In this document: piece after piece, positions 1 to 14,446 of the stretch
How positions within the stretch are numbered: position 1 is the first letter of the stretch
Layout: every line of letters starts with the position of its first letter
Source: an uncultured virus (IMG/VR IMGVR_UViG_3300020047_004730)
Taxonomy: Duplodnaviria; Heunggongvirae; Uroviricota; Caudoviricetes; Crassvirales
Virus record (IMG/VR): IMGVR_UViG_3300020047_004730
Direction: 5' to 3' (one strand)
Length of the DNA stretch: 20,000 nucleotides
Program-made: the position numbers and the translations under genes
Notes under the pieces: model-generated
Database searches by the model: none
The model's input: the letters and a program-made list of their open reading frames with translations, nothing else
Told to the model about the DNA's origin: nothing

Positions 1-3000
1 TTAGCAGCAGGCTTAACTTCAGTAACAACTTCTTGTTTAGCTACAGTTGGTGTCGCTTTTTCTACTTTCGTAGTAGTAGCAGTTTTAGTTGCAGGCAACA
101 AAGGAGTTATTTTTGCATCGTACTTATTGTATATTTCGTTATACTTAGCTAAAACATCAGCTGGCATAGATTCCTTGTTTATCTCACCATCGACTTTGTA
201 TTCCTCTATATTAGGTATAGCTTCATTTAACTCTTGCTGTTCTTGAGCTCTTAAAGTTTTTACTTTTTCGCTATTGGTAGCCTCCTTGCTTTTAGAAGTC
301 TCCTTAACGTACTTTGTCTCTACTTCTTTGTATACAGTATCAAAGTCAGCTTGCTCTACAGTTCCAATCTCATTTTCTCTTTGCTTTATAGCTAAATCCA
401 TAGCTATGTCACCAGTAAACTTAGCTGTTGTTCCAAATCTATCTGTTACCGTTACAGCCGCAAGATTACCTGCATCATCAAATTCAAAGTCTCCTTCATT
501 TATCTTCATCGTAGGAGTGTCTAGAACAACAGTTTCACCGTTATCCATTACAGCCTCTGTTCTGCCTTTGTTTGATTTAAAGGTAGCAGGAACTCCGTTT
601 ACTTCTGCTGTTTGTCCTTCGAAGAATTTTTCTGCGCTGATTTTAGCTGTAGCAGCTTGTTTAGCAACTGGAGCTGTGCCTCTTTGGGTAACAGCGATAG
701 TTTCAGTCTTTGTTCTAAATTCATAGTTGTCTAGTTGTTCTGCTATATTCATTAATTTTTCAGACAAAGATTTCTTGGTCTGATCAGAATAATTTGCATC
801 GTTATTAATTGATTCTACTTCACTAAATATCGTATCTATAGTTGAATTAATTTCTGAATCGTTAATGTATTCAGCGTTATTCATCTTAGCCATTACGCTA
901 TCTATAGTACCACCTATTCTCTCGTTTGATCCTAGTTCTGAAATATAATTACTTACTTCTTGTGTTGCCTTAGCACCGAGTTCTTTTACACTTATGCTTT
1001 CGACAGCGCTATCGCCAGTATTTGCTTCATTGACCGTGGCTTCCCGTTGGATCCCTTCTCCTTGCCCGACTTTTTGTTGTCCTTCACTAGTTCCCTGATA
1101 TTCGACTGTACTACCTTCTGTTGTACCTTCTTGTTGCTGGATGTTGTCTTTTTTATTGGCATCTTCTGATATTTGTGTTAGTTTATTGTTTATTTCTGAT
1201 ATTCTAGCTTTTTGTACTGAAACAAGACTCTCATCTTTACCTGAAATTTCATTTTCTAATCTTTGTTTTTCAGCCAATAACTTAAATGATTCTGTCTTAT
1301 CAGTTACATTAGCTGGAATCTTATCAAGCAAACCTATAGAAGAATTTAATTCATCTATTTGATCTTTAGCTTGCTCTACTGTAATCTGATTATTTAAAAT
1401 TTTTGTCTTTAAATCATTTTCAAATACAGTTTTTACATTTGGATCATTTATTATTTTCTCTAATGTATTTATTTGATTTGCAGTTCTAACTTCCTTAGCA
1501 GTACTTATAGCCTGAGTAGTAGAAGACATTATCGTTCCTCCAAGAAGTCCTAGCTTATAGCTTTCAGACATTCTATCTACTATCTCTGGAAATGAAGGAT
1601 TTTTAAATACCTCTTGATCTTTCATTTCATTGTATGCATACTTTATCCCAATATCACCTAATTCCTGTAAGGCTTCAGTAGACGCTTCAACATTACCTTT
1701 AGCTGACAAGCTTATTACTCCCTTTGCAATTAATGCATTCACGTTAGTCTTTACAGCCTTATCTACCATTTCTTCAGTAGCATCCTTAGGTAAATCCTTA
1801 AATGCTTTTGCCATTATATATGATGTGAGATTAACACCAGCTGGACTCTTAGAAAACCATTTAGACATACCCAAAGACTCTAGCTTGGAAGATATATATC
1901 CATATCCACCACTTAATAATATCTTATCAGCTTCATCTATACCTGCAGTATCTGGGTCTGAATTTATTTGATCTTTAAAGTTTAAGTATGAGTTAGCAAA
2001 CAATCCTAATTGTTGAGGATTTAGAACAGCTTTTTTACCAAGTTGTTTCATTATCTCAATCCCTCCTTGTCTCCAAAATGATGATGTAGCAACAGATCCA
2101 ACAGCTCCTCCTATAGGCATAGAAGCTGCAGCACCTATTGATTCAGCCATTCCAGCCAATACTTTTTCAACATCAGATAATTTTGCACTTTTTGTATACT
2201 CATCAGACATTATTCCGGGAAGAAGATCTTGCCATGCATCATTTCTTGACACTGACTCATCATATATTCTTTTACCATTTATGTCATATGTAGGGGTCTT
2301 AGTGTAATCATCGATTTGCTTTAACATCTTAGGAAGGCTTACAAATCCACTAGCAAAACTAGAAATTATATTACTAGCCATGTCGCCTCTTAATTCTTTT
2401 GGAGTTGATGCCTCACCGATAATCTTTTCCATGGAATCATTATTTTCCATTATAGTTTTAGATTCATCGACAAGATTATCATATCTTTCCTTTAGCTGTA
2501 GCTTATTAGTTTTGTATGACTCATCATTTGTTATTTCATCATATTTTTCTTTAGTTATCTGACCTGAAACATATAAATTTTTTAACTCTTCATCTGTCTC
2601 TTGTTGTTTTTTCAAGTCATCCTTAAATACAACAGAATTAGATACAAATCTTGTTATATTTTGTTGTGTATCTTCCCTAACGTCAGTGGCATTTTTCTTA
2701 CCATACATTGCCATTGCATTATAATTATTTTGCAATGCATATCCTTTTCTGTAAAATTCTTGTTCTTTTATTTTAGAGTCAGTATCTGAAATTTCTTTTT
2801 CTATTTCATATGACGGTCTGCCAGCTGGATTTTTTAATTCATCAACTAGGTATCTTCTTTTTTCAACTAGATTATTATAGTCTCTAAATTCAAGATTGGA
2901 TTTTATAAATGACTTAAATATTTCTTTTTCATTTTCTGTTCCATCTAAGTCTATTACGATATCTTGAAGAGTTTTTTTGTTCGTTATTTTCAACATGTTA

Positions 3001-3656
3001 CCCATGCCAGCTTCTTCGAAATCAAATAAATCATATCCAATATCTTTAAAGCTTCTAGATAATTCATATACAGATTCTTCTTCTGATTTATTAACGTACT
3101 TAGATGCAGCTTCTGATATCTTATCTATCTTTTTTCTTTCTACTACAATAGGGTCATCATTCTCCATTACATTGAATGACTTTTTAAACAAATCTTGAGC
3201 TTGTTTTTGATCTACTGTAGCGTTCTTTTTTTCTTTCTGAATATCTGGTGTAGACGTAAATTTTAATTCAAGATTTTTCTCATAATCTGAATCAAATAAT
3301 TTTTTAGAATTTTTCTCTAAATTTGAAATTCTTTTATCAACATCTCCTTTATATAGTTTGATAAAATTTCCAGATCTATTTGTATCTACAAACCATTCAT
3401 TGCCCTTCTTTTTGTATACAGAGAACTCATTACCGGGAAATGAATATAATCCTTCAGGCTTTCCTCCAGAAGAAACCGAAGGCTTTTGCTCCTTCTTGGC
3501 TGGAGTAACCGATGAAGTAGGTTTTTGACCTGATGGAGAAAGTGATGCCGTAGGTTCTTTTTTTTTTACAGCATCTTCACTTGAGTATTTTTCCCAAGGT
3601 TTCTTATCTTCTGTTTGTTGAGAATATTTTTCCCAAGGTTTTTTTTCTTCTGACAT
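1..3656 (-). CDS. Giant internal virion (cargo/ejection) protein, >1218 aa, 3' end beyond the window
   Basis: ATG at 3656 (MSEEKKPWEKYSQQTEDKKPWEKYSS...). The frame reads open to the window edge (...QEVVTEVKPAA), which explains its absence from the ORF track. Coiled-coil-like K/E-rich stretches, Gly/Ala hydrophobic segments (LAGMAESIGAAASMPIGGAVGSVA) and EASTEALQE. Lies after two smaller ejection-type genes. Confidence 0.88.
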   Translation of the reverse strand, partial: MSEEKKPWEKYSQQTEDKKPWEKYSSEDAVKKKEPTASLSPSGQKPTSSVTPAKKEQKPSVSSGGKPEGLYSFPGNEFSVYKKKGNEWFVDTNRSGNFIKLYKGDVDKRISNLEKNSKKLFDSDYEKNLELKFTSTPDIQKEKKNATVDQKQAQDLFKKSFNVMENDDPIVVERKKIDKISEAASKYVNKSEEESVYELSRSFKDIGYDLFDFEEAGMGNMLKITNKKTLQDIVIDLDGTENEKEIFKSFIKSNLEFRDYNNLVEKRRYLVDELKNPAGRPSYEIEKEISDTDSKIKEQEFYRKGYALQNNYNAMAMYGKKNATDVREDTQQNITRFVSNSVVFKDDLKKQQETDEELKNLYVSGQITKEKYDEITNDESYKTNKLQLKERYDNLVDESKTIMENNDSMEKIIGEASTPKELRGDMASNIISSFASGFVSLPKMLKQIDDYTKTPTYDINGKRIYDESVSRNDAWQDLLPGIMSDEYTKSAKLSDVEKVLAGMAESIGAAASMPIGGAVGSVATSSFWRQGGIEIMKQLGKKAVLNPQQLGLFANSYLNFKDQINSDPDTAGIDEADKILLSGGYGYISSKLESLGMSKWFSKSPAGVNLTSYIMAKAFKDLPKDATEEMVDKAVKTNVNALIAKGVISLSAKGNVEASTEALQELGDIGIKYAYNEMKDQEVFKNPSFPEIVDRMSESYKLGLLGGTIMSSTTQAISTAKEVRTANQINTLEKIINDPNVKTVFENDLKTKILNNQITVEQAKDQIDELNSSIGLLDKIPANVTDKTESFKLLAEKQRLENEISGKDESLVSVQKARISEINNKLTQISEDANKKDNIQQQEGTTEGSTVEYQGTSEGQQKVGQGEGIQREATVNEANTGDSAVESISVKELGAKATQEVSNYISELGSNERIGGTIDSVMAKMNNAEYINDSEINSTIDTIFSEVESINNDANYSDQTKKSLSEKLMNIAEQLDNYEFRTKTETIAVTQRGTAPVAKQAATAKISAEKFFEGQTAEVNGVPATFKSNKGRTEAVMDNGETVVLDTPTMKINEGDFEFDDAGNLAAVTVTDRFGTTAKFTGDIAMDLAIKQRENEIGTVEQADFDTVYKEVETKYVKETSKSKEATNSEKVKTLRAQEQQELNEAIPNIEEYKVDGEINKESMPADVLAKYNEIYNKYDAKITPLLPATKTATTTKVEKATPTVAKQEVVTEVKPAA
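992..1162 (-). CDS. Nested (+1 frame) 56-aa basic protein MPIKKTTSSNKKVQQKVVQSNIRELVKDNKKSGKEKGSNGKPRSMKQILAIALSKA
   Basis: Hand translation: ATG at 1162-1160, TAA at 994-992. Resembles the small phage proteins of pattern MPLKKG...SENIRE...KQAVAIALSKA (DUF6496-like, from memory). A-rich upstream sequence. Local GC about 45% versus about 30% at 1201-1320. Confidence 0.7.
   Translation of the reverse strand: MPIKKTTSSNKKVQQKVVQSNIRELVKDNKKSGKEKGSNGKPRSMKQILAIALSKA
3454..3567 (-). other. A10 slippery run (3558-3567) and -1 frame extension KKKRTYGITFSIRSKTYFIGYSSQEGAKAFGFFWRKA*
   Basis: Zero frame reads GTA AAA AAA AAA GAA. The -1 frame is bounded by TGA at 3579-3577 and TGA at 3456-3454 and has no start codon. 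The zero frame over this stretch is S/P/T/K low-complexity. Confidence 0.6.
3586..3641 (-). repeat. 17-bp direct repeat, 39 nt apart, encoding tandem KKPWEKYS motifs
   Basis: tatttttcccaaggttt at 3586-3602 and 3625-3641. Confidence 0.9.
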
Positions 3657-3659
3657 AGA

Positions 3660-5222
3660 TTAATTTTTTTTCCAATTTTTCTTATCTGCAGGATCTCCAC
3701 CTAGAAATGTATATCCTTCTACCGAATCACCCTTTTTAGGTGTTTTACCGCCTGTACTTGTTTCTCCTGTATTCGTATTCGTGCTGCCTCCCGGTTTGTA
3801 GTAGTAATCACCGTAAAGTTTCTTGTAATCATCTTTTCCTTTATGATACAATGGAACATTACCTTTCACGTTTTTCAAGTACTGAGTCATTCCATCAGGA
3901 CTGTATATTCTTACTTTTTGATTAGCAGGCTTAATTTTACCATTACCAACGTCTATTTTTTCATCAATTACAACATAAGGATTTCCATCTTTGTCTTTAT
4001 ACCAGTTGAATGTATAGTTGTCAGTATCGAATCCTGCAAAATTTCCTTTAGAAAGAGCGTCAGCTGATGCCGTATATGCGTTAATAGCTACTTTCTGGTC
4101 GTCAGTACCTCCACCTCCACCACTGCTTGAATACGGCTGAGGTGCACTAGCTTGAATCTTAGTTTCAATCTGGTAGTCAATCTCTTTAGCAACTCTCTCT
4201 TTAGCTGCAGTCAGTTGATCGTTCGTAAGTACTGGAATCATTTCTCCAGCTGCATTCTTTTCAAACTTAATAAATGACATTTCAATTTTCTTCTTGTCAT
4301 CATCAGTAAATTTCTTTCCTGCTGCTTCGTATTCAGCCTTTGCTTTAGATAGCTCCTTAGATAGCATTGCATCTTTTTCGCTATCTTTTGAGTAGTAGTT
4401 TGCTGAATTAATAACGCCATTATCAACTAGTATACTAAGTGCTGACTTTGGGTTTGACGTTACTGCATTAGCAACATTTATCTGCATGAACTTATAATCA
4501 TCTTGATTTTTAATGCTTGAAACTGTTTTTTCACCACCTCTACCAAGCATAGTCCATTCATCTACACTCTTCCAGTTTCCAATAGCTCCATCAACAACTG
4601 AGCCAATGTCTACTCGATTTATCTGAAGGTTTTCTGGACGAGCAAAGTCACGGTAATCAATAAGTTCACCTACTGGATTTCCTGATGCGTCTGTCTCTTG
4701 TAAGTACATAGATCCATCATTACCCAATACCATCTTCTTGTTATTCAAGTCAGCCATCTTAAGGTATTCATTCATGTAGAATGACTCTCCGTCAGATGCT
4801 GCAACTACTCCATTAGCATCTGGAGTAAGTCTGTCTTGATAAAGCTTGAATCTTTCATCAGCTGTCTTTGCTTGGTCAGCAAAATTACTCCAGTATTCCT
4901 GTGCGTTTGCAAGAGTCTTCTTATAATCTGCAGTTGATATTTCTCTATTGTATAGCTTCTTCTTTAAATCAAGAGCCATCTTCTTGTACTTATCAGCTCC
5001 ATCAATAACGAAGTTCGTTAGCGTCTGCTTTTCAAGATTTAATGGTTTGTTTAATTTAGTAAGCGTATCTGAATATTGAGTTTCAATTTCTTCAATTGCC
5101 TTATCCCTATTCTTACCTATCTGAGATACTTCAGCTCCTAACTTAGAGGTTAGTGCAGCCCAATCTACATTGGATCCACGATCTCTATATTCTATATTTT
5201 GTAGTGTACTTTGTCCTGCCAT
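3660..5222 (-). CDS. Putative internal virion/ejection protein (520 aa)
   Basis: Helical N-terminus, Gly/Ser linker (SSSGGGGGT) and C-terminal mini-domain KGDSVEGYTFLGGDPADKKNWKK. Lies between the pilot-like gene and the giant gene. Confidence 0.75.
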   Translation of the reverse strand: MAGQSTLQNIEYRDRGSNVDWAALTSKLGAEVSQIGKNRDKAIEEIETQYSDTLTKLNKPLNLEKQTLTNFVIDGADKYKKMALDLKKKLYNREISTADYKKTLANAQEYWSNFADQAKTADERFKLYQDRLTPDANGVVAASDGESFYMNEYLKMADLNNKKMVLGNDGSMYLQETDASGNPVGELIDYRDFARPENLQINRVDIGSVVDGAIGNWKSVDEWTMLGRGGEKTVSSIKNQDDYKFMQINVANAVTSNPKSALSILVDNGVINSANYYSKDSEKDAMLSKELSKAKAEYEAAGKKFTDDDKKKIEMSFIKFEKNAAGEMIPVLTNDQLTAAKERVAKEIDYQIETKIQASAPQPYSSSGGGGGTDDQKVAINAYTASADALSKGNFAGFDTDNYTFNWYKDKDGNPYVVIDEKIDVGNGKIKPANQKVRIYSPDGMTQYLKNVKGNVPLYHKGKDDYKKLYGDYYYKPGGSTNTNTGETSTGGKTPKKGDSVEGYTFLGGDPADKKNWKKN

Positions 5223-6025: not shown

Positions 6026-6751
6026 TTAAGGATTTGACTTAAAAACATTTGAACTGATTTCAAATATCTCTACCTCGTCTTCTGAACTATTGGTTATTGT
6101 TACCTCCATCCATGCGCCACGAGCACCAAAACTCTCAGCCTGACTGGCTTTAACGTACACGATCAAGTCAGAAGATGCTGGTGCGCTGATTTCCGACACG
6201 AGAGTTATGGACTGAGCGTCATGTGAGGCTACCATTCCAACTAAAATTAGTGCGCCACCAACTACCTTGTAGATTGCATCTCCCTGACTGATCGATGTAC
6301 CAATATTAAAGTCAAAAGAAATTACAGGATTAGAGTATGAATCAACCTCCCCAATTCCTTGAGTTGATAATGCCCTATTGTCCCCGTCTCCAGAGTTACG
6401 TCTTATAAAGGCAAACCAATGTCCTTCCTTTTGAACGAACCAATCCTTATCAATTATTCCAGTATTTAAGTCTGTTGTTGCTGATAAATCCCAAACGTCG
6501 TTACTCTCCAATGAGATAGTCTTGAACATCTTAAGTGTTGTCGGCTCTTGATTAAAGAGCATTGTTATAGAAGAGTCATACTTAATATCGTAAAACTCAT
6601 TTCTAGTAGAATTAGAATCGTGCTTGTAAAGGCTTCCATCCTTCCATGTGTAGAATGTATTATTCATTCCAGTCATCCAGTCAGGAATAAAGGACCAAAA
6701 AGAGGTCCAGCCATTACCCGTTGGTGAATATGATATAGTCTTATCTGCCAT
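6026..6751 (-). CDS. Tail structural protein; stand-alone equivalent of the muzzle/stabilisation protein C-terminal domain (241 aa)
   Basis: TISYS..GWTSFWSFIPDWM...NNTFYT.K.G.LYKH, RNEFY, KMFKTISLES, F.QKEG.WFA.I and GARG.WM motifs recall the C-terminus of crAss-like stabilisation proteins. Confidence 0.75.
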   Translation of the reverse strand: MADKTISYSPTGNGWTSFWSFIPDWMTGMNNTFYTWKDGSLYKHDSNSTRNEFYDIKYDSSITMLFNQEPTTLKMFKTISLESNDVWDLSATTDLNTGIIDKDWFVQKEGHWFAFIRRNSGDGDNRALSTQGIGEVDSYSNPVISFDFNIGTSISQGDAIYKVVGGALILVGMVASHDAQSITLVSEISAPASSDLIVYVKASQAESFGARGAWMEVTITNSSEDEVEIFEISSNVFKSNP

Positions 6752-10549: not shown

Positions 10550-13500
10550 TTATTTTTTAGGTGTTTCAGCGTTTAGTACTAGTGTTATTATCGTTCCCTT
10601 TCTACCTCTAGCTTGAGTTAGAATAAACGATTCAGTTAATCCGTCACAGTATGTAACTCTAAGCTCTACCTCTCTATTTATTGAAGTATTATTTACAGCC
10701 ACTTCTCCATAGATATTTTGAGATCCAGATCCAGATGTTGCGAAGTTACCTATCCAGTTAGTTCCAAATCCAATATTTACAGCTGTTATTGTCCAAGGAG
10801 AGTCAGTATTTATAGAGAATAGTAGGTATCCTAAATTATCTTTTGGTACGCTTAATGAGTTTCTACTTATCGAAAGTCTACAAGGTATAGATCTTTGAGA
10901 GTTGTTGCTAATCATGTACACATGATTGAATGGATCGTACGCACCTAACTTCTGAGTGAATGGATTGTCTCTCATCAAGTCTCTGAAGTAATCTCTCATC
11001 CCTAAAGACGATACCTCAACCATTGTATCTCCCTCCATTTGAAGTACCACACCGTTTCTAGGATCTGCAAACCACATTAAGTCACCCCATGTAGCAAATG
11101 ACTCTGGCGCATTACTTATCCCATACTCATACTGCATTGGTATTTGATTTCCAAGAACTTCTGGTATAGATGCTACCTGTCCTCCTCCAACTGAGTCAAA
11201 CAATACGTTCTTACCGTACAGTACTCTTGAAACCTTTTTCTCTTGAAATACTCTAAGGTCTGTATCTCTTGCATGAAGTTTTTGAATGCTTGCGAATTCT
11301 CTATCTAAGTACTTGAAGTTAGCAAGACTTAAATTAAATTCATTCAGTCTGTTATACTGTGTGTTCTCATTGTATATTCCACTGTAGCAAATTGATGCAT
11401 CATTTCTGATTTTCTTGTAGTTGTCAATTACCGTAGTGGCTCTTGGAGAGTATTCAATAGTTGTTTGATTGAAGTCATCATAAATACGGTCAGACTCCAA
11501 TCCATTTCCCCATGCCCAAGCATTATAGTCACAGTTTGGATTAGCTGGAGTATTTAACTCAATTACAGCTGCTTGATTAGATGATACAGACTGATCTTCA
11601 TTTGATGATCCTGACAATATAACAGGTCCTGCAGCTACTGATCCAGTCCATGTCTTGTCTATTATCATTTGATATCTATCTCTTGTTTGTAATACCTCAT
11701 AGTCAGTACCTGCAACAGTTACTATATCACCTACAGTAAAGTAATGAGGTCTAGACCTATCAGATAATCTTAGTCTTGTTTTTGCTGCTAATCCAGCATA
11801 TCCTAATGATGAAACATCAAACTTCCAAGTTACAATATGGTTTCCATTCTGATCTATTGGATACGTCTGAGATAACTCATGAAAAATGTCAGCGTCTGTA
11901 TTTTTTGGTGATGTCTCGCAAAGTAGAGGAGTATCAGTTTGTGCTATTGAGAACCTAACTACTATCTTATTTTCATCATTATCATCGTAACCAAATCCTT
12001 GTATAATCATATAAACAGGAGCTTGTACTCCACCTGAAGATATTCCTTGAGATATTACAAGTTGTGTATTTCCATCATTTGATGCATTAGAAGTAAATGG
12101 TGTAAATCCCCTTCTAAATGTAACTCCTCTTGAATTTGGTACATTTACACCATTAGTGTCGTACTGATCAAACTCAAGATACGCTCCAGATTCAACAAAC
12201 CATTCCTCTATATTTTCGTAGTATGAGCTAGAAGGTAGAAATTGCTGTATTGGTGCTTGTGCTACAGAGTTAAGAGAATCCTCAACTATCTGAAGTCTTA
12301 TGACTGCTCCCGGTTGAATAGGATCTGTAAATCCTGCATTTACAATTGCTCCACCTCCATATTGTCCCGGACTATATAATAAACTTTGAGATGGTAAACC
12401 AACTCCTCCAAAATAATTACCAGTAAGATTACCATTGCCTCTTACATTTATTTTCCAAACATCTCCAGATGTATAGTTAGATTGTGTAAATAAAATACTC
12501 ACATACGGTAATCCATCTCTATTAATTGTAACTGCAGATCCTTGAACTATGTTTGCTGCAGCAGACCATGGACCTGATCCATCTAATGATCTAGTATAAC
12601 GAAATTGATTGTTATTTAATATCTCTATGGTAAATCTTGTATCTACAGCATATAAATTAAGAGGTGTCGAACTTACTAATTGTAATCCACTAGAGTCCCC
12701 ATCACCATAATGTATAGGCTGTTCAACAGTTGCAAACCTACCTACTACTGGATATAATACAGCTCCAGCTCCCCATCCCGTAGACTCAATAGTTACATTT
12801 GTAATAGCTGACGGAGAGAATTGAGATAGTGAGTCAACCTTTATTTTAAAATATACACCCGGTATAGATCCAGATACAATTGCTCCAGCATTCTTTGACT
12901 CTAGCTCTAGTATCTTGTATTTCTTGTTTGACTGAGTTGGTCCATTAGGGTCTGATTTAAATATAATGTATTCACCAACCTTTACCTTGTCTACGTCTGA
13001 GTCATTAATCAAGAAGTATCGATATGCTCCACTTACATAGTAAAGTATTGGAAATACATTATATATCTTACTCTGACCTTGCTTTACTGCTATTCTATAG
13101 TTTGTCGCCCAACATGGAGCCGTGTGATTAATTCTTAGAAGCAACTGATTAGCCGAAGTTGAATTTGCTGGCGGTATATAGATAGAGTTAGTGTCACATG
13201 TAAGTGCAGTAGTAAGTCGTCCATACTCATCAGAATACAACAAGGCAAACTCAAGATCTCTATCCGATCTCCAAGTAGACATTGGGTTAAGAACTGTAGG
13301 TAATAGTGTAGGTTGTTTTATACCCAATGTAAAGTTGATATTTATATTATCACCATTACAATCAATTATATCTCTAAACTGCTCGTAGTTTCCATACGCT
13401 AGTCTATTACCTATTACGTCTTGAGCCTTTGCTAGTAATGGAACATTATCAAATAGTCTAGTCACCTGATCTGTAGGTAGTGCTGCTAAAACTCTGTTAT

Positions 13501-14446
13501 TCTTGAACGTAACAGTTACAGAGTCACCTGTCTGACTAAATCCCGGTAGGTTATCTTTTTCGTATGTCTCTACAATACCAACGTTCAAGCTTCTAGTGTC
13601 TCTAACTACTAATTGAATAGCCTTCACAAACTCGTTACCAGTCTCAAATGAAACCCGGCATGAGTTGTAAATATTTGTCATTGACTTATTGTTTCCTACC
13701 CCGTAGTCAAAATTATATTCATCAGGCATGAATGACACTGCTGAGAATGGAGATAGTGAGCTGTACTGATTATCTAAGTATAGGTATCTATATGCAAAAT
13801 AAAGGAATTTCTCCTCCATGTTGTTTGCCTCTGGATCAGATGAATCCAAGAACGGATCAATATGAGGTGCATACATTGGAGGATTAAGGATCACGTCAAT
13901 GTCTTTATCAATTCGTGCATCATCAATGTTATACCCACCGATACCGTTAGCTCCTGCCTTTACTCTTTTTATGTTTATTCTTCGTGGAGGGTTATAGTCG
14001 TCAGTCCAATACAAGAACGTATTCCCGTCTGGACCAATAATGTGATTTACTCCAGTGATTAAGTATTCCTTCTTAAAATTAAGTTTTGATGGAGTTGATT
14101 CGTTTGCCTTGTTTGACTGTAACACACGAACGGTTGTGCCTGTGTTCTCGTCGTACTCATAGATTCCATCAAAGAAGTCTCCAGCAACAAACCAGTACAA
14201 TAAACCTCCAGCCTCATACGTCACAGATCCAATCGTTCTAGCGTCTGTTGCGTTTCTACCTGATACAGCAGCTATGTTTGCCGCTATTGTATTTCCTATT
14301 GAGTTCTGTGCAGCTCCTACATTTGATCCGGTAGATGTCTCTACAGTTATGTTTTGGGCATCTCTGTATTGACCTTGAGGCACAAGTCGCTCATCAAGGT
14401 CTTTGTTCATTACTCCTTGTATAAATGTATTCTTAAGTTCTGCCAT
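10550..14446 (-). CDS. Muzzle / tail stabilisation protein (P22 gp10-like, crAss-like), 1298 aa
   Basis: N-terminus F..G.MNKDLDERLVP.GQYRDA.NI, YWTDDYNPPRRINI, FAYRYLYLDNQYSSLSPFS, FDNVPLLAKAQ, GNRL.YGNY, NGLES.RI.DDFN and YGIS..PESFA.WG are characteristic of this family. Confidence 0.88.
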   Translation of the reverse strand: MAELKNTFIQGVMNKDLDERLVPQGQYRDAQNITVETSTGSNVGAAQNSIGNTIAANIAAVSGRNATDARTIGSVTYEAGGLLYWFVAGDFFDGIYEYDENTGTTVRVLQSNKANESTPSKLNFKKEYLITGVNHIIGPDGNTFLYWTDDYNPPRRINIKRVKAGANGIGGYNIDDARIDKDIDVILNPPMYAPHIDPFLDSSDPEANNMEEKFLYFAYRYLYLDNQYSSLSPFSAVSFMPDEYNFDYGVGNNKSMTNIYNSCRVSFETGNEFVKAIQLVVRDTRSLNVGIVETYEKDNLPGFSQTGDSVTVTFKNNRVLAALPTDQVTRLFDNVPLLAKAQDVIGNRLAYGNYEQFRDIIDCNGDNININFTLGIKQPTLLPTVLNPMSTWRSDRDLEFALLYSDEYGRLTTALTCDTNSIYIPPANSTSANQLLLRINHTAPCWATNYRIAVKQGQSKIYNVFPILYYVSGAYRYFLINDSDVDKVKVGEYIIFKSDPNGPTQSNKKYKILELESKNAGAIVSGSIPGVYFKIKVDSLSQFSPSAITNVTIESTGWGAGAVLYPVVGRFATVEQPIHYGDGDSSGLQLVSSTPLNLYAVDTRFTIEILNNNQFRYTRSLDGSGPWSAAANIVQGSAVTINRDGLPYVSILFTQSNYTSGDVWKINVRGNGNLTGNYFGGVGLPSQSLLYSPGQYGGGAIVNAGFTDPIQPGAVIRLQIVEDSLNSVAQAPIQQFLPSSSYYENIEEWFVESGAYLEFDQYDTNGVNVPNSRGVTFRRGFTPFTSNASNDGNTQLVISQGISSGGVQAPVYMIIQGFGYDDNDENKIVVRFSIAQTDTPLLCETSPKNTDADIFHELSQTYPIDQNGNHIVTWKFDVSSLGYAGLAAKTRLRLSDRSRPHYFTVGDIVTVAGTDYEVLQTRDRYQMIIDKTWTGSVAAGPVILSGSSNEDQSVSSNQAAVIELNTPANPNCDYNAWAWGNGLESDRIYDDFNQTTIEYSPRATTVIDNYKKIRNDASICYSGIYNENTQYNRLNEFNLSLANFKYLDREFASIQKLHARDTDLRVFQEKKVSRVLYGKNVLFDSVGGGQVASIPEVLGNQIPMQYEYGISNAPESFATWGDLMWFADPRNGVVLQMEGDTMVEVSSLGMRDYFRDLMRDNPFTQKLGAYDPFNHVYMISNNSQRSIPCRLSISRNSLSVPKDNLGYLLFSINTDSPWTITAVNIGFGTNWIGNFATSGSGSQNIYGEVAVNNTSINREVELRVTYCDGLTESFILTQARGRKGTIITLVLNAETPKK

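What the first reader, a model, noticed from the sequence alone, without database searches (positions are those of the whole stretch)
992..1162. Overprinted 56-aa basic protein gene fully nested in the giant virion gene
Seen: the same-strand +1 frame encodes MPIKKTTSSNKKVQQKVVQSNIRELVKDNKKSGKEKGSNGKPRSMKQILAIALSKA, below the ORF-track cutoff. The host frame over this span becomes a disordered Q/E/G linker with codons atypical for the gene (GTC, GGG, CGG, ACG). GC rises to about 45% from about 30%, and the upstream sequence is A-rich like a Bacteroidota initiation region. From memory, the MPxKK...NIRE...KQxxAIALSKA pattern matches a widespread stand-alone small phage protein family. Inference: a formerly free gene was captured within a tolerant linker and is still translated, perhaps as a DNA-binding or core protein.
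Basis: partly seen in the sequence, partly recalled or inferred. Interest (0 to 1): 0.78.

Follow-up and report, generated by a model that had tools for sequence, protein, structure and literature searches.

The report
Small basic-protein gene nested in giant phage gene
A 56-codon gene for a small, very basic phage protein sits in a second reading frame inside a 3479-codon virion-module gene of a crAss-like phage, is kept intact by selection in dozens of relatives, and can be replaced at the same site by an unrelated small gene.

Summary
Window 992-1162 (minus strand) is an intact 56-codon ORF in the +1 frame of a 3479-aa gene downstream of a crAss-type muzzle gene. Its product belongs to the DUF6496 small-protein family (23.8 bits against a cut-off of 24; 35 database homologues). 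In 28 related viral contigs the same ORF is nested in the same frame. There the small frame shows purifying selection (pN/pS 0.32) and the host frame does not (1.86), yet the host frame has no stop. All 52 stand-alone homologues have 1-10 stops in that frame. The small protein is 55-86% identical across relatives whose host protein is only 26-51% identical.

Beyond the finding: of 66 homologues of the host gene, 25 carry this ORF (S1). Another 40 carry a non-homologous small ORF (S2) at the same site, in the same frame, with the ATG at the same host codons. Host-gene homology between near-identical phages ends about 20 nt into the nested ORF, so its start is a recombination junction.

All 68 records of cultured Flavobacterium elemo phages hold an S2 ORF lying only under the giant "structural protein" CDS. 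Translation and function remain untested.

The parts
992..1162 (-). Nested gene S1: ATG, 56 codons, TAA. It encodes a basic (pI 10.7) two-helix protein of the DUF6496 family. This copy lacks the K-rich C-terminal tail that the 28 other nested copies have.
1..3656 (-). 5' part (1218 codons) of the giant host gene. It starts with ATG at 3656 and runs off the window. The whole gene is 3479 aa (L002:1108-11547). Its only Pfam match is DUF7178 at aa 1730-1842. It lies downstream of the crAss-type muzzle gene (window 10550-14446, minus strand).
990..1163 (-). Host codons 832-889: an acidic Q/E/G/T-rich segment (pI 4.1) read from the same DNA as S1. It uses codons that are rare in the rest of the gene and has raised GC.
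1163..1192 (-). 30 nt upstream of the S1 start. The region is A-rich with A at -3 and -2, has no Shine-Dalgarno motif, and folds weakly. An S-frame stop lies 5 codons before the ATG.
1164..1256 (-). Host codons 801-831: the conserved motif (GKD..LV....RI.EIN..L..IS) that ends the conserved N-terminal module just before the nested start.
1162..1165 (.). Mosaic boundary at the S1 start. Metagenome contigs that match S1 diverge here. In related pairs, host-gene homology ends about 20 nt inside the nested ORF.
995..1008 (.). Mosaic boundary at the S1 end. Metagenome contigs that match S1, or S1 plus the upstream host gene, diverge here.
   Evidence: host sequence downstream of S1 differs between relatives

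Best explanation
Window 992-1162 (minus strand) is a working gene, here called S1, for a 56-aa strongly basic two-helix protein of the DUF6496 family. It is fully nested in the +1 frame of a 3479-aa gene in the cargo-gene position of a crAss-like phage.

Shown:
- Selection acts on the S1 frame.
- The host frame across S1 is only kept free of stops. It reads as an acidic low-complexity linker because Lys-rich codons read one base earlier give Glu/Gln/Gly codons.
- The site is a cassette slot at the end of a conserved N-terminal module of about 830 aa. It is filled by S1 or by a non-homologous small gene, S2.
- Recombination junctions lie at the ends of the nested gene.

Inferred:
- S1 is translated on its own, by internal initiation on the late mRNA at an unstructured, A-rich start with A at -3, as expected for Bacteroidota hosts.
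- S1 is older than the host-frame linker. The giant gene therefore reads through a once free-standing small gene, rather than a new gene having arisen inside it.

Guess (about one chance in three): the product is a nucleic-acid-binding or virion-internal protein made together with the virion and cargo proteins.
For: Family:
- Pfam DUF6496, E 5.8e-5.
- 35 homologues; 14 of the 35 carry PF20106 in the precomputed column.
- All 9 invariant alignment columns are present in the window's copy.
- 285 cluster representatives at E<=1e-3, mostly 40-90 aa and matched from residue 1.

Nesting conserved:
- 29 of 81 sequences (80 loci plus the window) have S1 inside a large same-strand ORF, always with host frame = S frame + 2 and with 0 stops.
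- The 52 stand-alone copies have 1-10 stops in that frame (median 5); 0 of 52 are open.

Selection:
- Nucleotide diversity at S1 codon positions 1/2/3 is 0.245/0.192/0.390. Host third positions are therefore the least variable.
- Host flanks show the normal pattern: 0.42/0.34/0.51 and 0.56/0.45/0.62.
- pN/pS is 0.32 in the S frame, 1.86 in the host frame and 0.98 in the third frame (378 pairs).
- S1 is 55-86% identical across relatives, while host N-terminal regions are 26-36% identical, 51% in one.

Start:
- ATG is present in all 29 nested S1 copies, in all 25 further S1 copies and in 40 S2 copies.
- In 101 distinct contexts the -30..+20 window folds at -1.44 against -6.28 kcal/mol for the host-gene background. 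It is weaker than the background in 101 of 101.
- A at -3 is found in 0.88 of S1 and 0.72 of S2 contexts. This fits the abstract of PMC6847099.

Cassette slot:
- Of 66 host-gene homologues, 25 have S1, 40 have S2 and 1 has neither.
- S2 shows the same codon-position signature, 0.25/0.158/0.401.
- S1 and S2 are not homologous.
- At least 10 S1/S2 switches are forced on the host-module tree.
- L083 (S2) and L084 (S1) are 97.4% identical until about 20 nt into the nested ORF; homology then ends.
- Metagenome contigs break at both ends of S1.

GC: the rise is a dual-coding effect. Nested S1 has GC 0.495 against host 0.344 (28 of 28 higher). Stand-alone S1 has 0.378 against locus 0.393.
Against: - No direct evidence of translation or of the protein: no RNA holder was listed, and no proteome was seen.
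- The Pfam score is 0.2 bits below the curated cut-off.
- The window's copy is the only one of the 29 nested S1 copies without the K-rich tail. It ends at TAA right after the second helix, with a second stop two codons on, so it could be a slightly damaged copy.
- dN/dS estimates in overlapping frames depend on each other. I used plain Nei-Gojobori counts, not a dual-frame model.
- No unfused ancestor with three separate genes was found. Large ORFs that precede stand-alone S1 in L029 and L040 are not homologous to the host module.
- Function has no support beyond charge, size and neighbourhood, and the neighbourhoods of stand-alone copies are mixed.
Confidence: 0.85

Rival explanations
1. Programmed +1 ribosomal frameshift. 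Ribosomes translating the N-terminal module slip into the S frame, so the product is an approximately 830-aa protein with an S1 C-terminal domain, not a free 56-aa protein.
For: - S1 lies in the +1 frame exactly at the end of the conserved N-terminal module.
- Some relatives have A-runs just before the ATG.
- In L031 the homologous module is a separate gene that ends soon after S1.
Against: - An S-frame stop lies 1-5 codons before the ATG in nested S1 copies, and directly before it in several S2 copies. This leaves almost no room for a shift site.
- No slippery motif is shared. The window has CAGAAGATGCC.
- The ATG is kept in every copy seen.
- Stand-alone homologues begin at this same Met.
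- The start region carries initiation-type features.
Confidence: 0.06
2. Non-coding or passenger conservation. The S1 frame is a fossil of a captured gene, and the DNA is conserved for another reason, such as the host linker, an RNA element or a recombination site.
For: - The region is a recombination junction.
- Its conservation exceeds that of the flanks.
- The window's copy has lost the C-terminal tail.
Against: - Variation is concentrated at S-frame third positions and is lowest at host third positions.
- pN/pS is 0.32 in the S frame against 1.86 in the host frame.
- No nested copy has an internal stop or a lost start, across relatives whose host proteins are only 26-36% identical.
- The region around the start is less structured than the background, not more.
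Confidence: 0.05
3. The giant ORF is not one gene. The real genes are an N-terminal gene, S1 and a downstream gene, and the host frame merely happens to be open across S1.
For: - Mosaic breakpoints lie at both ends of S1, as at gene borders.
- L031 has the N-terminal module as a separate 756-aa gene.
- Sequence downstream of S1 differs between relatives.
Against: - The host frame has no stop across the nested ORF in 29 of 29 S1 carriers, in 25 of 25 further S1 carriers and in 65 S2 carriers.
- The same frame has stops in 52 of 52 stand-alone S1 copies.
- There is no stop at which the N-terminal gene could end, so it must at least read through S1.
- GenBank annotators also call the elemo gene as one 3668-aa CDS.
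Confidence: 0.04

Closest known systems
Phage lambda Rz/Rz1 embedded spanin genes (recalled from general knowledge, not from a call)
   Same: A small gene lies wholly inside a larger phage gene on the same strand in the +1 frame. It has its own start codon, and both frames are maintained.
   Different: - Rz1 and Rz are functional partners, and the embedded frame is thought to have arisen within the pair.
- Here the nested gene belongs to a family that mostly stands alone.
- The host is a giant virion-module gene.
- The nested gene can be replaced by a non-homologous one at the same site.
- No functional link between the host and nested products is known.
Overprinted (de novo) overlapping genes of small viruses, e.g. 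phiX174 E in D (reviewed in PMC8227390; abstract seen in the listings)
   Same: Two proteins are read from one stretch of DNA. One frame is strongly constrained, and the other is compositionally odd and probably disordered.
   Different: The age relation is reversed. The nested frame is the old, widespread one, and the stretch of the large gene that overlaps it is the derived reading.
Pfam DUF6496 (PF20106), small proteins of unknown function
   Same: Similar size and a helix-loop-helix prediction. The HMM matches model positions 4-47 of 58. Near relatives carry the Pfam label.
   Different: - The window's copy scores 0.2 bits under the curated cut-off.
- This subfamily was found almost only on viral contigs. 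Only 6 hits came from one genome per prokaryote species, all of them on MAG contigs.
- No function is known. A full-text search for 'DUF6496' found 0 papers.
Phage morons: small autonomous genes inserted between phage genes (recalled from general knowledge)
   Same: Small accessory genes with patchy distribution and breakpoints at their ends; they are exchanged between otherwise similar phages.
   Different: These lie inside a coding sequence without interrupting it, because their second frame is open. No promoter or terminator of their own was shown.

Membership tests
Pfam DUF6496 (PF20106) | Score at or above the curated gathering cut-off (24 bits) | tested here: inconclusive
   23.8 bits, E 5.8e-5, model positions 4-47 of 58. 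A search of the window's own genome gave 22.8 bits.
Pfam DUF6496 (PF20106) | Clear homology to proteins that carry the family label | tested here: met
   35 homologues at E 9.5e-20 to 2.7e-4, of which 14 carry PF20106 precomputed. All 9 invariant columns are shared. The Atlas's nearest clusters are DUF6496.
Nested same-strand overlapping gene (Rz1-in-Rz type) | Small ORF wholly inside a larger ORF, same strand, other frame | tested here: met
Nested same-strand overlapping gene (Rz1-in-Rz type) | Nested frame under purifying selection while the host frame is kept open | tested here: met
Nested same-strand overlapping gene (Rz1-in-Rz type) | Independent translation of the nested ORF | not testable with these tools
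   Only indirect evidence: a conserved ATG, and an unstructured A-rich start with A at -3. No RNA holder was listed.
De novo overprinted gene | The nested frame is the younger one, confined to the lineage that has the overlap | tested here: not met
   52 stand-alone homologues among 80 loci. 285 cluster representatives of mostly 40-90 aa.
Programmed +1 frameshift product | A conserved shift site upstream, and an open S frame reaching back into the host gene | tested here: not met
   An S-frame stop lies 1-5 codons before the ATG, and no motif is shared.
crAss-like (Crassvirales-type) virion module, as context for the host gene | Muzzle protein and the conserved order of virion genes | tested here: met
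   PF25731 crAss_MUZ 46.5 bits and PF25729 crAss_MUZ_C 52.3 bits, both against a cut-off of 27. PHROG virion families occur in the same order as in L201. That the giant gene is a cargo gene is inferred from its position only (PMC10172136, passages).

The most novel reading that the evidence does not exclude
S1 and S2 may represent a class of 'read-through cassettes'. These would be small basic-protein genes that carry their own start and whose second frame has been purged of stops. That second frame encodes a harmless acidic disordered linker.

Such a gene could sit inside a virion gene, or weld two virion genes together, without breaking them. Recombination at the cassette ends would then shuffle modules and help build the giant multi-domain virion proteins of crAss-like and related podophages.

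Observations in favour:
- The same frame relation is found in at least four host contexts that could not be linked to one another:
  - the giant gene family of the window;
  - the giant genes of L036 and L037;
  - the elemo giant gene;
  - an acidic gene of about 400 aa between the portal gene and the capsid-like gene.
- The homologous but unfused 756-aa gene of L031 carries the nested gene as well.
- At least 10 S1/S2 swaps are forced on one host lineage.
Probability: 0.35. Interest if true: 0.9.

Novelty: new variant of a known kind. Interest (0 to 1): 0.8.

Why it matters
Nested genes are dropped by standard annotation. All 68 GenBank records of a cultured Flavobacterium phage group hold such an ORF, and in every row listed it lies under the giant 'structural protein' CDS alone (12 of 69 rows were listed). 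The one region I opened in full has no feature for it.

This case reverses the usual story of overprinting. An old, widespread small gene lies inside a younger reading of the same DNA. That shows one way in which giant phage proteins can be assembled across small genes.

The alternative, non-homologous cassettes at one site point to a selected need for some small basic protein to be made from the same late message as the virion and cargo genes. That gives two uncharacterised small-protein families (DUF6496 and the MPFKSK-type family) a testable context in a culturable phage-host pair.

Tried and rejected
- GenBank phage collection: blastn of window 1-3700, tblastn of S1, of a stand-alone S1 and of the 831-aa N-terminal module all gave no match. 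BLAST's low-complexity filter is on and may hide Lys-rich hits.
- Solved structures: a profile of S1 against PDB sequences gave 0 hits at E<=10. The giant protein gave 0 at E<=0.01.
- Fold searches with the S1 model: PDB gave nothing at E<=0.001. BFVD gave 67 weak rows and none at E<=0.001, mostly small uncharacterised phage proteins.
- The NCBIfam XopR match of S1 (16.6 bits against a cut-off of 500) is noise.
- S1 against S2 by profile comparison: probability 1.1%; only the first five residues align.
- Search for an unfused ancestor: the host-module profile against the C-termini of large ORFs that precede stand-alone S1 in L040 and L029 gave probability 0.3% and 0.2%. Against the elemo giant gene upstream of its S2 it gave 0.4%.
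- PHROGs gave no family for six acidic host ORFs of about 400 aa, nor for the elemo giant protein.
- Longer fused forms of S1: none scored among 17 candidates, which is weak evidence.
- Expression: no RNA holder listed.
- Earlier findings of this scan: nothing by place or by sequence.
- Papers: 'DUF6496' is in 0 papers. Two searches on overlapping or nested genes with crAss-like or bacteriophage terms listed no paper on this case among the 15 titles shown each. 'BAL314' is in 1 paper, which I did not read.
- An alternative genetic code was considered and dropped: all large ORFs of the window are open under table 11.
- Nine other nested ORFs of the window look like chance.
Full report
**What is in the window**

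The window is the minus strand of G000:C1:20763-40762, a 54,979-bp virus record that CheckV estimates to be about 90% complete. All large ORFs run on the minus strand. They include:
- a muzzle protein, 10550-14446, matching PF25731 at 46.5 bits against a cut-off of 27;
- a separate muzzle C-terminal domain protein, 6026-6751, matching PF25729;
- several PHROG virion structural families.

So this is the virion module of a crAss-like phage.

The last gene starts at 3656 and leaves the window. In the full record it is 3479 aa (L002:1108-11547). Its only Pfam match is DUF7178 at aa 1730-1842. It has no PDB sequence match.

In PhicrAss001 the genes after the muzzle gene encode cargo and RNA-polymerase-associated proteins (PMC10172136, passages). 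That the giant gene is a cargo gene is an inference from position only.

Parts of its C-terminal two thirds match proteins in 284 GenBank phage records. The best match is 54% identity over about 200 aa with the 'structural protein' of Flavobacterium elemo phages.

**The observation**

ORF 992..1162 (minus strand) is ATG plus 56 codons plus TAA, and it encodes exactly the quoted peptide. It lies in the +1 frame of host codons 832-889.
- The small protein has pI 10.7 (15 K+R, 3 D+E).
- The host-frame reading has pI 4.1 and is rich in Q/E/G/T.
- Host codons rare in the rest of the gene are enriched there: GTC 4/58 against 8/3421, GGG 2/58 against 8/3421, CGG 1/58 against 0/3421.
- GC reaches 0.467 against 0.24-0.32 nearby.

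All elements of the observation are confirmed.

**Family**

S1, as I call the nested gene, scores 23.8 bits on Pfam DUF6496 against a cut-off of 24, with E 5.8e-5.
- A word-indexed search found 35 small proteins of 37-65 aa at up to 82% identity. Fourteen of them carry PF20106.
- The alignment has 9 invariant columns, and the window's copy has all of them.
- A profile search of 1.84 billion cluster representatives found 285 at E<=1e-3. Among the best 150, most are 40-90 aa and are matched from residue 1.
- No longer fused form scored.
- In one genome per prokaryote species there were only 6 hits, all on MAG contigs.
- In IMG/VR, 229 contigs encode a relative.
- AlphaFold2 with this alignment predicts helix 11-29, a loop, and helix 45-55, with mean pLDDT 83.5.
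- No solved or annotated fold matched.
- 'DUF6496' occurs in no paper of the library.

**Is the nested copy a gene?**

I examined the best 80 viral loci plus the window.
- In 29 of the 81 sequences, S1 lies inside a large same-strand ORF. The frame relation is always the same and the host frame has no stop.
- In the other 52, S1 stands alone, and that same frame holds 1-10 stops (median 5).
- All 29 nested copies keep the ATG and have no internal stop.

Among 28 distinct nested sequences, nucleotide diversity at S1 codon positions 1/2/3 is 0.245/0.192/0.390. S1 position 2 is host position 3, so host third positions are the least variable sites. In the host flanks the usual order returns: 0.424/0.341/0.512 and 0.555/0.451/0.618.

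Nei-Gojobori pN/pS over 49 ungapped codons and 378 pairs is 0.32 in the S1 frame, 1.86 in the host frame and 0.98 in the third frame.

S1 is 55-86% identical to the window's copy. The host N-terminal regions of the same loci are 26-36% identical, 51% in one.

The GC rise is a dual-coding effect. Nested S1 has GC 0.495 against 0.344 for the host gene (28 of 28 higher). Stand-alone S1 has 0.378 against 0.393 for its locus (higher in only 10 of 52). The reason is visible in the code. A T at an S1 third position before a Lys, Asn, Glu, Asp, AGR-Arg or AGY-Ser codon would make a host stop. G or C there gives host Glu, Gly or Gln codons.

**How it is probably expressed**

An S-frame stop lies 5 codons before the ATG in the window, and 1-5 codons before it in relatives. 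This leaves little room for a frameshift into S1.

In 101 distinct nested-start contexts (34 S1, 67 S2):
- The -30..+20 window folds at a mean of -1.44 kcal/mol, against -6.28 for windows across the upstream host gene.
- It is weaker than the background mean in 101 of 101.
- A at -3 is found in 0.88 of S1 and 0.72 of S2 contexts.

Bacteroidetes lack Shine-Dalgarno sequences, and their initiation is tuned by mRNA structure and by A at -3 (abstract of PMC6847099).

One distant carrier, L037, instead has AGGAGG a few bases before the ATG. Independent initiation is therefore the best reading, but it remains an inference.

**The site is a cassette slot**

A profile of the 350 host residues before S1 (A2) found 66 viral loci.
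- 25 carry S1.
- Of the other 41, 40 carry a different small ORF, S2, of 41-66 aa where complete. It begins MPFKSK or a close variant. It has the same +1 frame, and its ATG falls on the same host Asn/Asp-Ala codons. Three of the 40 ran past the stretch I read.
- One locus (L148) has neither.

S2 has no Pfam family. It has 21 database homologues and is not homologous to S1 (hhalign probability 1.1%). Its predicted fold is two short helices followed by a tail (pLDDT 79.6).

S2 shows the same selection signature as S1: 0.25/0.158/0.401 against 0.57/0.445/0.627 in the host codons just upstream.

On a quick maximum-likelihood tree of 102 distinct host modules (35 with S1, 67 with S2), the S1/S2 state changes 15 times. 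At least 10 changes are forced by starred branches (SH-aLRT support only, with several long branches).

The window (S1) groups with L083 (S2) and L084 (S1). L083 and L084 are 97.4% identical in DNA up to about 20 nt into the nested ORF, and homology then ends. L105 and L104 behave likewise at 89%.

Logan contigs of four metagenome runs match the window only, or mainly, across 995-1165. Their loose ends lie at 995-1008 and at 1162-1165. Both ends of S1 are thus mosaic borders. Host sequence downstream of S1 differs between relatives.

**Other hosts of the nested genes**

- L031, another crAss-like contig with a muzzle family upstream, has a homologue of the N-terminal module (hhalign 97.2%, E 4.5e-11) as a separate 756-aa gene. 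That gene covers S1 and ends 65 codons later.
- L036 and L037 carry S1 inside ORFs of 1953 and 2595 aa. BLAST links L036 to the window's gene only through a 65-residue match across the overlap, and links L037 not at all.
- Among the best 80 of 364 S2 loci, 74 gave an S2 ORF by pattern. Of these, 65 are nested and 9 stand alone.
- Of the 65 nested S2 copies, 21 lie near the 5' end of an acidic ORF of 384-439 aa. In L201 this ORF sits between the portal gene and the capsid-like gene phrog_13704 of a crAss-like gene order.
- Cultured phages have it too. In Flavobacterium phage vB_FspP_elemoA_1-9A the 3668-aa 'structural protein' CDS holds an S2 ORF at L229:3582-3710 in its +1 frame, and no feature is annotated for it.
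- All 68 elemo records match this ORF at 99% or more over residues 1-29, and one uncultured record matches at 86%.

**What it may do**

Stand-alone S1 genes have mixed neighbours. Three of 30 flanking proteins tested match a portal-like PHROG (phrog_332). Others match terminase small subunit, endolysin, nucleotide enzymes, or nothing. A Streptomyces phage has an S2-like gene between a 'peptidase' gene and a holin gene.

What S1 and S2 share is small size, strong positive charge, short helices, a Lys-rich tail in most copies, and a place inside late virion-module genes. My best guess, at about one in three, is a nucleic-acid-binding or internal virion protein made with the cargo proteins.

**Caveats**

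- There is no expression or protein evidence.
- The Pfam score is just under the cut-off.
- The window's S1 is the only one of the 29 nested copies without the Lys-rich tail.
- I used simple dN/dS counts, not a dual-frame model.
- I examined only the best-scoring loci of each scan.
- The host-module tree is a quick one.

**Verdict**

The nested gene is real, conserved and under selection. It belongs to a known but uncharacterised family. It is embedded at a recombination junction of a giant virion-module gene, where it alternates with an unrelated small gene. Nested genes are known in phages (for example Rz1 in Rz, recalled). Three things are new: the age relation is reversed, alternative cassettes share one site, and the arrangement recurs in several host genes.

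Noticed in passing
L229:3186-3218 (Flavobacterium phage vB_FspP_elemoA_1-9A, MT497075.1): A 10-codon stump that begins like S2 lies in the same +1 frame of the giant CDS, about 400 nt upstream of the full nested S2 ORF (3582-3710). It may be a decayed second cassette.
   Followed up: no
L103:5019-5147: A 43-aa S1 variant without the central loop is nested in a host ORF of more than 2300 aa at the usual site.
   Followed up: no
L037:6001-6168: S1 is nested in a 2595-aa ORF that also has a tRNA-methyltransferase-like PHROG domain. AGGAGG lies just upstream of the nested ATG, which suggests a host that uses Shine-Dalgarno sequences.
   Followed up: partly
L031:4116-6386: A homologue of the N-terminal module exists as a separate 756-aa gene with S1 nested near its 3' end. 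Separate genes of 165 and 948 aa follow. This may be an unfused state of the giant gene.
   Followed up: partly
window 6026-6751 (-): A 241-aa protein carries a crAss muzzle C-terminal domain (PF25729, 52.3 bits), apart from the 1298-aa muzzle gene at 10550-14446. This is a split or duplicated muzzle domain.
   Followed up: no
L002:4705-11544 (giant protein aa 1200-3479): The C-terminal two thirds are a mosaic. Separate segments match a Flavobacterium phage structural protein, a 'lysin containing a beta/gamma crystallin motif' of an Octadecabacter virus, and 199 Mycobacterium phage records.
   Followed up: no
L236:2501-2719 (Streptomyces phage FlowerPower gene 48): A stand-alone 72-aa gene between an annotated peptidase gene and a holin gene shares the first 26 residues of S2 at 73% identity.
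   Followed up: partly
window 995-1165: In four metagenome runs the summed contig depth over S1 is several-fold higher than over its flanks. Contigs of other phages share only this stretch.
   Followed up: partly
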